DNA of 64,000 nt from Octopus vulgaris (Eukaryota), in contig OX597815.1 in the NCBI GenBank assembly GCA_951406725.2, positions 48,050,001 through 48,114,000 on the forward strand, in the 5' to 3' direction. The notes under the pieces were generated by a model. The model saw only the letters and a list, made by a program, of their open reading frames with translations, did no database searches and had not been told where the DNA came from. The position numbers and the translations under genes were made by a program. Positions 2,463-34,350 of the stretch are shown piece by piece; position 1 is the stretch's first letter, and the number at the start of each line of letters is the position of its first letter.

Positions 2463-2477
2463 CAATTATAAATGTAT

Positions 2478-3237
2478 ATATAAATAATATTTTGATAGAC
2501 AAACCCAAAAGGCTTTGCAAGTTATGCAGAGGAAGCTACTATGGAAGGCTCATTGTATAATAACTGTATAATATATATCATACTATGAGTATGATATATA
2601 TTATATAGTTATTATACAATGAGTTTTCCATAATAGCTTTCTCTCCATAACTTGCAAAGCCTTTTGGGTTTGTTTATAAAGATATTATTTATGTAGTATT
2701 AACCCTTTTGTTACTGTATTTATTTTGAGATGCTCTGTATTTCTTTCAATTATTTTAAATATAACAAAAAATTTAATAAAATAACTTAGTTATCATTCAG
2801 CTAGTGTTAGGAACATAAATTGTGACTAAGGTTTGGTGGCAGATTATAATTCAAAACTTATGAAAACGAGACATTTGTACTCAGAGCCAGAGTCAGTTTC
2901 AGCTGGCTTGGTAATGAAAGGGTTCAGAAAGTTTAAGTATATATCAACTAAATTTGACTGAAATTGATGGGTGAGCATTTGGCTAATCAGATTCACAAGG
3001 AACCGTGTAAGCGTTTATTTGTGAGTTCGATTCAGCCTGAGGTTAGCTCATCATTTTTCAGTCATTTATTTATATTTAAACAAAAACTGTCGCTTCAAAT
3101 CAGAGAATAAATATCATTATGATATATATTATACAGTTATTATACTATGAGTCTTCCATAGTAGCTTTCTCTCCGTAACTTGCAAAGCCTTTGGGTTTGT
3201 TTATGAAAATATTATTTATGTAGTATTAAGACAGTTT
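2478..3237 (+). mobile_element. Unclassified element: inverted copy + two ~115-bp direct repeats around a Pol III-like core
   Basis: 2478-2582 is the reverse complement of 2591-2695; 2591-2934 (excluding the MITE) is directly repeated at 3119-3237; A-box-like TGGCTAATCAG at 2980 and B-box-like GAGTTCGATTC at 3023. Confidence 0.7.
2703..2922. mobile_element. piggyBac-like MITE
   Basis: TTAA|CCCTTTTGTTAC...GTAATGAAAGGG|TTCA (TTAA target with one copy mutated); removing it restores the flanking direct repeat. Confidence 0.75.
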
Positions 3238-3961: not shown

Positions 3962-4200
3962 CGTGCTGGTTCCCTGTTAAAAGCACCCAACACACACTGT
4001 AAAGTGATTGGTGTTAGGAAGGATATCCAACCATCTGTAGAAATCAAGTCAAATTAGACTGGTATGTAGTGCAGCTCTTCTGCTAGCCAGCCCTGGTCAG
4101 ACTGCACAACCCATGCCAGCATGGAAAACAGATGTTATATATTAATTAAATTTGACTGAAATTGATGGGTGATGGAAAATAGATGTTAAAGGATGATGAT
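3962..4200 (+). mobile_element. SINE family C carrying a templated 37-bp insertion
   Basis: gttaggaaggatatccaacc...acccatgccagcatggaaaacagatgtta...gatgatgat. Confidence 0.75.
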
Positions 4201-25539: not shown

Positions 25540-25775
25540 TTTAACTTGTTTCAGTCATTGAACTGTGGCCATGCTGGGGCACTACCTTGAAGAGTTTGTC
25601 GAAAAAATGACCCCAGTATTTATTATTTAAGTCAGGTATTTATTCTATAGAGACTGGTAGAATAAGTACCAGGTTTAAAAAGTACTGGGCTTGATTTGTT
25701 CAACTAAAAAAAAAAAAACCATTCAAGGCACAGCCCCAGCATGGCCATAGGCAAATGGGTGAAATAAGTAAATGG
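25540..25775. repeat. Back-to-back inverted pair of SINE family A 3' halves
   Basis: 25540-25648 is the reverse complement of the tail found in forward orientation at 25651-25775. Confidence 0.7.
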
Positions 25776-29931: not shown

Positions 29932-30370
29932 CCGGAGTAAACACATAAATGTGAAACAAGGTGGAAAAAAGAGTACTCAAATACCAGAGGTAGAGTAATA
30001 TCCTTTATTTAAAAGCAGCAGAAATTTAACAAAAGCTGTTACTCTTAGTTTCACGTTCCCGTTTGTTGGACAGTTTTGTTAAAATAGAACTGAGGTGACA
30101 ATTCTATCAAGACTAGTATAAACGTTACACCTTTAAAAATGGATTTGTTTGATTGGTCCTTTCAAAATGCGAAACTATCCAACAGTGTGATTTGTTTTGC
30201 ATTTTGAAAGGAACAATCAAACAAATCCATTTTTAAAGGTGTAACGTTTATACTAGTCTTGATAGAATTGTCACCTCAGTTCTATTTTAACAAAACTGTC
30301 TGACGAACGGGAACGTAAAACTCCCAGTAAAAGCTCTTGTTAAATTTCTGCTGCTTTTAAATAAAGTATA
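29930..30370. mobile_element. Foldback Penelope-like remnant with a hammerhead motif in each arm
   Basis: 173-bp arms at 30003-30175 and 30194-30366 with an 18-nt loop; hammerhead fold at 30296-30333(+) and its mirror at ~30036-30073(-). Confidence 0.7.
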
Positions 30371-30385
30371 TACATATATATACAT

Positions 30386-34094: not shown

Positions 34095-34350
34095 AAAGAA
34101 CTCTTTCTTCACCCATTCCCTTCTGGTCATTTCAATAAGTGACCGCGTGCGTATCGTTGGCGATTTTCTTTCTCCATCTTCCCTTCCTTGGACCTTCTCT
34201 TTTCCTATGTCTCTGATGAAGAGCTCCGCTCGAAACATTAAATCCTCCTTCTTTCTTTCCTTTTCTGAGTGTCCATTAACACTACACTTGTTCCCCGTCC
34301 TCGCGTTGTTGTGTTTTCTCTTGGTTCATGTTTGGATTAACTATGTATAT
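34095..34350 (+). mobile_element. Penelope-like remnant with a minimal hammerhead (34208-34243)
   Basis: CTGATGA-a-GAGC-tcc-GCTC-GAA-ACAT-T-aaa; intact core and stem II; ends in a TA array. Confidence 0.6.

What the first reader, a model, noticed from the sequence alone, without database searches (positions are those of the whole stretch)
2478..3237. Inverted + direct + direct repeat element around a Pol III-like core (element 1)
Seen: a ~105-bp-arm hairpin (2478-2582 / 2591-2695). Its right arm recurs directly at 3119-3237, giving a ~305-bp unit once the piggyBac MITE is removed. The unit contains A-box-like (2980) and B-box-like (3023) motifs inside a further ~22-bp inverted repeat (2955-2976 / 3041-3064). 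Known: partial tandems with an inverted segment at the 5' side are typical of Penelope-like element insertions. Inference: a non-autonomous Pol III-driven element mobilised by PLE (or tyrosine-recombinase) machinery rather than by LINEs. I see no hammerhead in it and no LINE-like tail.
Basis: partly seen in the sequence, partly recalled or inferred. Interest (0 to 1): 0.7.

Follow-up and report, generated by a model that had tools for sequence, protein, structure and literature searches.

The report
Ribozyme-free tRNA-promoter passenger of Penelope elements
This is one old copy of a 302-base non-coding repeat, present at a few hundred places in an octopus-type genome, that carries tRNA-type promoter motifs but no self-cutting hammerhead RNA and was likely pasted in by the enzyme of a Penelope-like retrotransposon, which would make it a little-described kind of genomic hitch-hiker.

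Summary
In detail: a 108-bp hairpin, a direct repeat and a nested piggyBac-type MITE; the unit is 303 bp here and 302 bp in the family. It is one decayed copy (median 90% identity) of a family of a few hundred loci. In 109 loci (164 arms), 128 arms end at two TA-rich sites (A, B), usually against microsatellite. Left ends vary, arms cross the unit junction seamlessly (up to 551 nt), 38 loci hold back-to-back pairs (1 tail-to-tail), and TSDs are at chance level. This is the Penelope-like (PLE) footprint; tyrosine-recombinase, Helitron, MITE and ordinary SINE readings fail. No hammerhead was found in any strand order. The A-like and B boxes lie 45 nt apart, as in this genome's tRNAs. However, a T5 terminator follows 20 nt after the B box, so Pol III alone would give ~95 nt; the transposing RNA needs read-through or another promoter. 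No autonomous partner was found, and RNA data are uninformative. The scan noted similar ribozyme-free, tRNA-bearing PLE passengers in other genomes, and hammerhead ones in this genome. Verdict: new variant of a known kind, moderate interest.

The parts
2477..2581 (-). Inverted, 5'-truncated copy (unit positions ~193-299); its outer end is priming site A, against a short TA run
2582..2590 (+). Hairpin centre; these 9 nt equal 3144-3152 of the unit and fold back on themselves (3-nt loop), suggesting a template slip followed by snap-back (inferred)
   Evidence: sequence
2591..2702 (+). Partial upstream copy (unit 193-302 plus TTAA = unit 1-4), the pseudo-LTR-like direct repeat
2703..2922 (.). Later-inserted 220-bp piggyBac-type MITE (CCCTTT...AAAGGG ends, TTAA target, right copy decayed to TTCA); not part of the element
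2923..3225 (+). One full unit (303 bp), 92% identical to the family majority
2927..3093 (+).
2980..2991 (+). A-box-like motif (one mismatch); in the family majority it is also a CCAAT box (GGCCAATCAG)
3025..3033 (+). B box, 45 nt after the A-like box; 13 nt identical to a tRNA-Thr(TGT) of this genome
3054..3058 (+). T5 run, a predicted Pol III terminator inside the unit
3132..3144 (+). Site B (unit ~209-220): second fixed end used by 66 of 164 arms in the family, not used as an end in this copy
3214..3225 (+). Site A (unit ~290-302): fixed end used by 62 of 164 arms
3226..3237 (+). 12-nt tail running into the next unit (unit 1-12)

Best explanation
This is a decayed copy of a 302-base non-coding repeat with tRNA-type promoter motifs and no hammerhead ribozyme, likely copied into TA microsatellites by the reverse transcriptase-endonuclease of a Penelope-like element. 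Shown: two fixed, TA-rich right ends (A at unit ~302, B at ~209-220), variable left ends, seamless partial tandems, back-to-back pairs with both fixed ends pointing outwards, and no TSD. Inferred: (1) RNA polymerase III starts near unit position 35-45 in a tandem source copy and sometimes reads through the internal T5 into the next unit, giving an RNA longer than one unit with redundant ends. (2) A PLE protein nicks both strands of (TA)n and primes cDNA inside the RNA at A and at B, mostly one from each strand (twin priming). (3) Seamless arms longer than one unit come from a multimeric RNA or from jumps between redundant ends, and B-primed arms of about 480 nt or more would rebuild a source copy. 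The symmetric hairpin of this particular copy is a minority outcome, likely a cDNA snap-back. Odds by step: PLE mobilisation ~0.75; tRNA origin of the boxes ~0.75; Pol III making the transposing RNA ~0.5.
For: Ends: 128 of 164 arms in 109 loci end in two windows covering 62 of 302 positions (windows as). No search query ended at B. TA-rich flank at 35 of 61 A ends and 27 of 61 B ends, versus 19 of 156 left ends and 6.8% background. Architecture: 40 head-to-head pairs in 38 of 109 loci, 1 tail-to-tail locus; 20 of 40 pairs are A+B (permutation mean 13.4, p 0.011); in 10 of 40 one arm stops within 8 nt of the other's priming site (mean 5.2, p 0.017). Two copies of a subfamily-marking site within one locus agree in 107 of 121 comparisons (44-65% expected by site). 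TSD-like repeats in 6 of 65 loci versus a mean of 2.7 (max 6) for shuffled pairings. Partial tandems, an inverted 5' copy, tails and (TA)n preference are the PLE hallmarks in PMC8557442, which lists octopus Naiad and Hydra as (TA)n-targeting. A PLE protein nicks and extends both strands, starts internally at two sites, and does not need hammerhead cleavage in vitro (PMC11167929). The genome holds intact 781-aa RT + GIY-YIG frames and Naiad copies. Promoter: A-B spacing 45 nt versus 44-47 in 27 tRNAs with a B-box match, out of 35 called; A + B + T-run arises in 0.27% of 3000 shuffles. 3 of 109 loci are long enough to hold start, full unit and second T5.
Against: No autonomous partner: the unit matches none of the PLE loci sampled. 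End comparisons gave only 2 of 14 nominal p<0.05 alignments, both AT-rich, and 10 unit motifs are absent from the PMC8557442 supplement. The T5 is well conserved (4% divergence) and lies upstream of both priming sites, so read-through is required and unshown. The A-like box lacks the usual downstream GG (consensus recalled; YGG in PMC10886601) and is equally a CCAAT box (1.2% of shuffles), a motif also seen in PLE end repeats here. Boxes are no more conserved than the rest of the unit. Left ends near the predicted start are only weakly enriched: 11 vs 7.3 expected (p 0.12) in all 156 arms, 7 vs 3.0 (p 0.03) in 74 less biased arms, and other windows are as high. 30 of 40 pairs do not abut. The two sites are 82-93 nt apart, not the 30-40 nt of published tails. 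The rod shows no covariation signal (term -0.21).
Confidence: 0.5

Rival explanations
1. It is the orphaned end repeat (pLTR) or a deletion derivative of an unsampled or extinct PLE family, transcribed by Pol II from the CCAAT box or by host read-through; the tRNA-like boxes are a relic or make only a ~95-nt by-product.
For: GGCCAATCAG is a CCAAT box; PLE end repeats in this genome carry CCAAT motifs; the T5 would stop Pol III early; only 150 of 6136 and 150 of 12459 PLE candidates were scored.
Against: In 2 of 109 loci PLE coding sequence lies nearby, and both are separate insertions downstream of the arm; arms cross the unit junction into more unit, never into an ORF; tRNA-exact box spacing.
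Confidence: 0.2
2. It is a retrozyme-like circular RNA element whose circle is made by an unrecognised ribozyme or by host tRNA-processing and ligation enzymes, then reverse-transcribed round the circle by a PLE protein.
For: Seamless junctions crossed twice in arms of 505-551 nt; the circular unit folds well on the + strand (z -4.7, 66% paired); no indel hot spot that would mark a jump point; known metazoan retrozymes are circular and RtcB-ligated (PMC7229834).
Against: No hammerhead core in any strand order (majority 0 on both strands; control 12 of 25 Naiad loci); no Rfam ribozyme at E<=10; pairs such as L030 and L131, where one arm passes the partner's site, need strand displacement on a monomer circle.
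Confidence: 0.17
3. It is a tRNA-derived SINE moved by a microsatellite-targeting LINE (for example Dong-R4 or RTE), with L1-style twin priming causing the inversions.
For: tRNA-like boxes; abutting pairs resemble twin priming; Dong-R4 and RTE families are active in O. vulgaris (PMC13282606 passages).
Against: No fixed 5' head, no poly(A) or LINE-like tail, no TSD, two internal priming sites and seamless tandems; inversions in 38 of 109 loci. LINE 3' ends were not compared directly.
Confidence: 0.08
4. It is a DNA-level element: a non-autonomous DIRS/Ngaro (tyrosine recombinase) element or a rolling-circle Helitron derivative.
For: No TSD; inverted plus direct repeats in this copy; the unit starts with TC in the majority.
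Against: The repeat layout differs among copies, with near-continuous left ends; only 4 of 40 pairs are symmetric like this one; no CTRR at either fixed end.
Confidence: 0.03

Closest known systems
Non-autonomous Chlamys PLEs such as MRC1, and Naiad/Hydra PLEs (Craig et al. 2021, PMC8557442; passages, section 6 and supplement searches seen)
   Same: Partial tandems, adjacent inverted 5'-truncated copy, short tails, (TA)n targets, no canonical hammerhead.
   Different: Those generally share their 3' end with an autonomous family; none was found here. No tRNA-type promoter is mentioned in the passages seen.
Metazoan non-LTR retrozymes (PMC7229834, passages; bioRxiv 10.64898/2026.07.22.740005, part 1 of 5)
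   Same: Non-coding unit of similar size in tandem, proposed PLE dependence.
   Different: Defined by a type I hammerhead in each unit, which is absent here; circular RNA is unshown here.
Schistosome Sm-alpha SINE-like repeats (as reviewed in PMC6765202, passages)
   Same: Pol III promoter inside a tandem unit, multimeric transcripts, tandem needed to keep the promoter.
   Different: Sm-alpha is released by a hammerhead; here there is none, and a T5 lies just after the B box.
Cassandra, Helenus and Ajax TRIMs (PMC10886601, passages)
   Same: A small-RNA-derived Pol III promoter inside the repeat of a non-autonomous retroelement; Cassandra RNA starts in one repeat and ends in the next, giving redundant ends.
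   Different: They are LTR elements with PBS and 5-bp TSDs moved by Copia/Gypsy; this one has the PLE footprint and no TSD.
Poseidon_Ac of the green anole (PMC11167929, parts 1-2 of 4 read)
   Same: Mechanistic model: both strands nicked in AT-rich DNA, two internal start sites, hammerhead cleavage dispensable in vitro.
   Different: Autonomous, with adjacent start sites not homologous to the target; here the sites are 82-93 nt apart and TA-rich like the target.

Membership tests
Non-autonomous Penelope-like element | Partial tandems forming pseudo-LTRs, with variable 5' truncation | tested here: met
   43 of 65 loci cross the unit junction; 43 of 164 arms exceed 312 nt
Non-autonomous Penelope-like element | Inverted 5'-truncated copy adjacent to the 5' end | tested here: met
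   38 of 109 loci head-to-head, 1 tail-to-tail
Non-autonomous Penelope-like element | Microsatellite/AT-rich targets without regular TSD | tested here: met
   empty sites were not available
Non-autonomous Penelope-like element | Two internal start sites giving an optional 30-40 bp tail | tested here: inconclusive
   Two sites are present but 82-93 nt apart; tails of 1-33 nt in a few copies
Non-autonomous Penelope-like element | 3' end shared with an autonomous PLE of the same genome | tested here: inconclusive
   No match in the PLE loci sampled; only the best 150 candidates per search were scored
Non-LTR retrozyme | Type I hammerhead in each unit | tested here: not met
   No CTGANGA on either strand; order-free core 0 in the majority, 3 and 5 of 76 arms by strand, control 12 of 25; Rfam none
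Non-LTR retrozyme | Abundant circular monomer RNA | not testable with these tools
   Only standard cDNA RNA-seq was available
tRNA-derived SINE | Internal A and B boxes at tRNA spacing | tested here: met
   B box exact, A box with one mismatch, spacing 45 vs 44-47; no tRNA call by ARAGORN or Rfam
tRNA-derived SINE | Fixed 5' end at the tRNA head | tested here: not met
   Left ends are spread round the unit; at most a weak excess at 30-45
tRNA-derived SINE | LINE-like or poly(A) tail and TSD | tested here: not met
   LINE 3' ends not compared directly
tRNA-derived SINE | Transcription by RNA polymerase III | not testable with these tools
   needs ChIP or in vitro transcription
DIRS/Ngaro tyrosine-recombinase elements | Fixed inverted or split direct terminal repeats | tested here: not met
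   Layout varies among 109 loci
Helitron | 5' TC and 3' hairpin-CTRR ends (recalled) | tested here: not met
   Neither fixed end is CTRR; left ends are not fixed
piggyBac-type MITE (nested 2703-2922 only) | Short TIRs and TTAA target duplication | tested here: met
   11 of 11 other copies have TTAA on both sides, 220-221 bp

The most novel reading that the evidence does not exclude
A member of an unnamed class of 'PLE-dependent SINEs': tRNA-promoter repeats with no ribozyme and no sequence taken from their carrier. They keep their promoter by Pol III read-through of an internal terminator and are twin-primed by a Penelope-type enzyme at two fixed internal sites of one RNA. They may also shed a ~95-nt rod-shaped Pol III RNA.
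Probability: 0.35. Interest if true: 0.7.

Novelty: new variant of a known kind. Interest (0 to 1): 0.48.

Why it matters
SINEs are normally paired with LINEs, and the small passengers linked to Penelope-like elements are normally defined by a hammerhead ribozyme. A passenger with a tRNA-type promoter, no ribozyme and the full PLE footprint would show that neither a ribozyme nor a carrier-derived tail is needed. That agrees with the in vitro result that hammerhead cleavage is dispensable. Its insertions also record how the unexplained tandem and inverted PLE structures arise: two fixed priming sites, with A preferentially paired with B. The family is old and no partner is known, which limits how directly it can be tested.

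Tried and rejected
Partner search: GIY-YIG family search, 20 widened loci, Naiad motif and protein searches, BLAST and end alignments and motif searches of the PMC8557442 supplement gave no partner. A slight likeness of the unit junction to the Naiad 3' end was not significant (p 0.6-0.7). The first ribozyme scan had no working positive control and was replaced. Rfam gave only generic miRNA-hairpin scores far below gathering thresholds and noise. Wobble-compatible variants were dropped as evidence for the rod, because most sit at CpG sites and RNAalifold shows no covariation. The idea that the rod is a separate nested MITE was rejected: in the 16 new loci found with the rod alone and the 29 pattern hits, the rod lies within arms of the unit and never appears as a TIR-to-TIR insertion with a TSD. 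The run search listed no RNA holder. Reads laid from three cDNA runs (108-132 of about 12 million read per run) come largely from one other locus read through from its flank, in both mate orientations, and none covers this copy's left arm. Such libraries lose short or circular Pol III RNAs, so this says nothing either way. A sequence look-up and a 'near' look-up in earlier notes found nothing.

Full report
Observation. The hairpin is real: arms 2477-2584 and 2588-2695, 91% complementary, E 9e-81. A contig of run X1 crosses its centre without a difference. The right arm recurs at 3112-3229 (92%). Between them lies a 220-bp MITE (2703-2922) whose 11 other copies examined all sit in TTAA. Removing it leaves a 303-bp unit (2923-3225) and a 12-nt tail. 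The genome is 2.8 Gb. It holds a Naiad 5' end carrying a motif from the published Naiad_Ovul/Obim sequences, so I call it octopus-type.

The family. A search with the unit gave 847 first-look candidates, of which 40 were scored. I pooled loci from five anchored searches and one fetch. I removed duplicates and two paralogues of L135, leaving 109 loci with 164 arms. Exact-pattern counts calibrated on known arms (29 hits, 10 of 70; 24 hits, 4 of 61) and recapture (13 of 29 already among 94 loci) suggest a few hundred loci, as a lower bound. Arms are 82-94% identical to the 302-nt majority (5th-95th percentile; median 90%), so the family is old.

Ends. Taking the + strand of this copy as RNA sense, 62 arms end at site A (unit 290-12) and 66 at site B (190-226, peaks at 209 and 220); 36 end elsewhere. 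A is favoured by queries that ended there, but B was never a query end. Among 156 arms of 40 nt or more, TA-rich flanks follow 35 of 61 A ends and 27 of 61 B ends, against 6 of 34 other ends, 19 of 156 left ends and 6.8% background. Left ends are spread round the unit. TSD-like repeats occur in 6 of 65 loci, against a mean of 2.7 (max 6) for shuffled pairings, and most are simple sequence. The junction between units is seamless, and L135, L138 and L132 cross it twice in arms of 513-551 nt.

Inversions. There are 40 head-to-head pairs in 38 of 109 loci (two loci give two pairs each) and 1 tail-to-tail locus. 20 pairs join an A end to a B end (permutation mean 13.4, p 0.011). In 10 pairs one arm stops within 8 nt of where the other began (mean 5.2, p 0.017); 30 pairs do not abut. 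Copies of a marker site within one locus agree in 107 of 121 cases. This fits priming from both target strands on RNA of one source, with modest support for one molecule. This window's copy is atypical: both outer ends are A-type and the two left ends coincide (4 of 40 pairs are so symmetric). Its 9-nt centre repeats 3144-3152, which suggests a template slip followed by snap-back (inference).

Ribozyme. There is no CTGANGA on either strand and no Rfam ribozyme in this copy or in the near-majority copy L002. Earlier scan notes describe a rewired hammerhead in Naiads, so I ran an order-free test. It finds 12 of 25 Naiad loci, nothing in the majority unit, and 3 and 5 of 76 decayed arms by strand, which I read as chance. 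An unknown ribozyme class is not excluded.

Promoter. The unit has one B box, an A-like box 45 nt upstream and one T5 20 nt downstream. tRNA genes of this genome have 44-47 nt spacing (27 of 35 with a B-box match), and the best alignment is to the T-arm of a tRNA-Thr(TGT) (z 3.7, best of 35). The three motifs together arise in 0.27% of shuffles. The cassette therefore looks like a decayed tRNA gene with its terminator, refolded into a rod (z -6.2 on +, -3.6 on -; no covariation). Left ends near the predicted start are only weakly enriched. The A-like box is also a CCAAT box, as in PLE end repeats here, so a Pol II reading stays open.

Carrier. The genome has thousands of GIY-YIG candidates, intact 781-aa RT + GIY-YIG frames, and 273 exact matches to a Naiad 3' motif. 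None of the sampled PLE loci shares sequence with the unit beyond one independent family copy in L074. PLE coding sequence near 2 of 109 loci is a separate insertion. The assignment to PLE machinery therefore rests on the footprint described in PMC8557442 (passages and section 6) and on the in vitro behaviour in PMC11167929 (parts 1-2 of 4).

Expression. Three cDNA runs gave 108-132 reads on L002, largely from one other locus read through from its flank. This copy's left arm has no reads. This is uninformative for short or circular RNA.

What is known. Retrozymes (PMC7229834 passages; bioRxiv 10.64898/2026.07.22.740005 part 1 of 5) need a hammerhead. Sm-alpha combines Pol III with a hammerhead (PMC6765202 passages). 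MRC1-type non-autonomous PLEs share a 3' end with their partner. Searches for a Pol III or tRNA-bearing, PLE-mobilised element (listings and abstract starts only, except the papers named above) showed no description of one. The library lacks most subscription journals and Repbase, and PMC13282606 (passages) lists 893 unclassified recently active SINE families that I could not inspect. Unchecked scan notes report the same two-end footprint for hammerhead repeats in this genome and ribozyme-free tRNA-bearing passengers in other genomes; they are leads, not support.

Verdict. The feature is real. It works like a retrozyme or non-autonomous PLE but fails retrozyme membership (no hammerhead) and ordinary SINE membership (no fixed head, tail or TSD). 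New variant of a known kind; interest 0.48.

Noticed in passing
window 4136-4172: A 37-bp fragment of the unit (positions ~16-52, 95-97% identical) sits 0.9 kb downstream inside a SINE tail, between two ~18-bp direct repeats (4121-4138 / 4172-4189); it looks like a templated repair patch, and its end is neither A nor B.
   Followed up: partly
window 29998-30371: A second symmetric fold-back (375 bp, 91%) with TA runs near both ends, carrying a decayed hammerhead-like motif near 30300; probably a back-to-back pair of PLE 3' ends from another family.
   Followed up: partly
window 34213-34235 (+): Compact hammerhead-core-like motif (CTGATGA...GAAA with a short stem II).
   Followed up: no
L135-L137 (G000:C14, 73.98, 74.25 and 74.37 Mb): Three near-identical paralogous copies of one of the longest arms (505-513 nt), apparently carried by a segmental duplication.
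   Followed up: partly
L061-L063, L065-L067, L079: A young C-terminal GIY-YIG PLE family with many intact 781-aa frames (95-100% identical); another family shows 784-aa frames.
   Followed up: partly
L226-L250: Naiad 3' ends (273 exact motif matches in the genome) with GAAA upstream of CTGATGA and stems I and III pairing in 12 of 25 copies, in line with earlier notes on a rewired hammerhead.
   Followed up: partly
window 25541-25772: A diverged (67%) palindromic repeat of about 230 bp, likely an old MITE.
   Followed up: no
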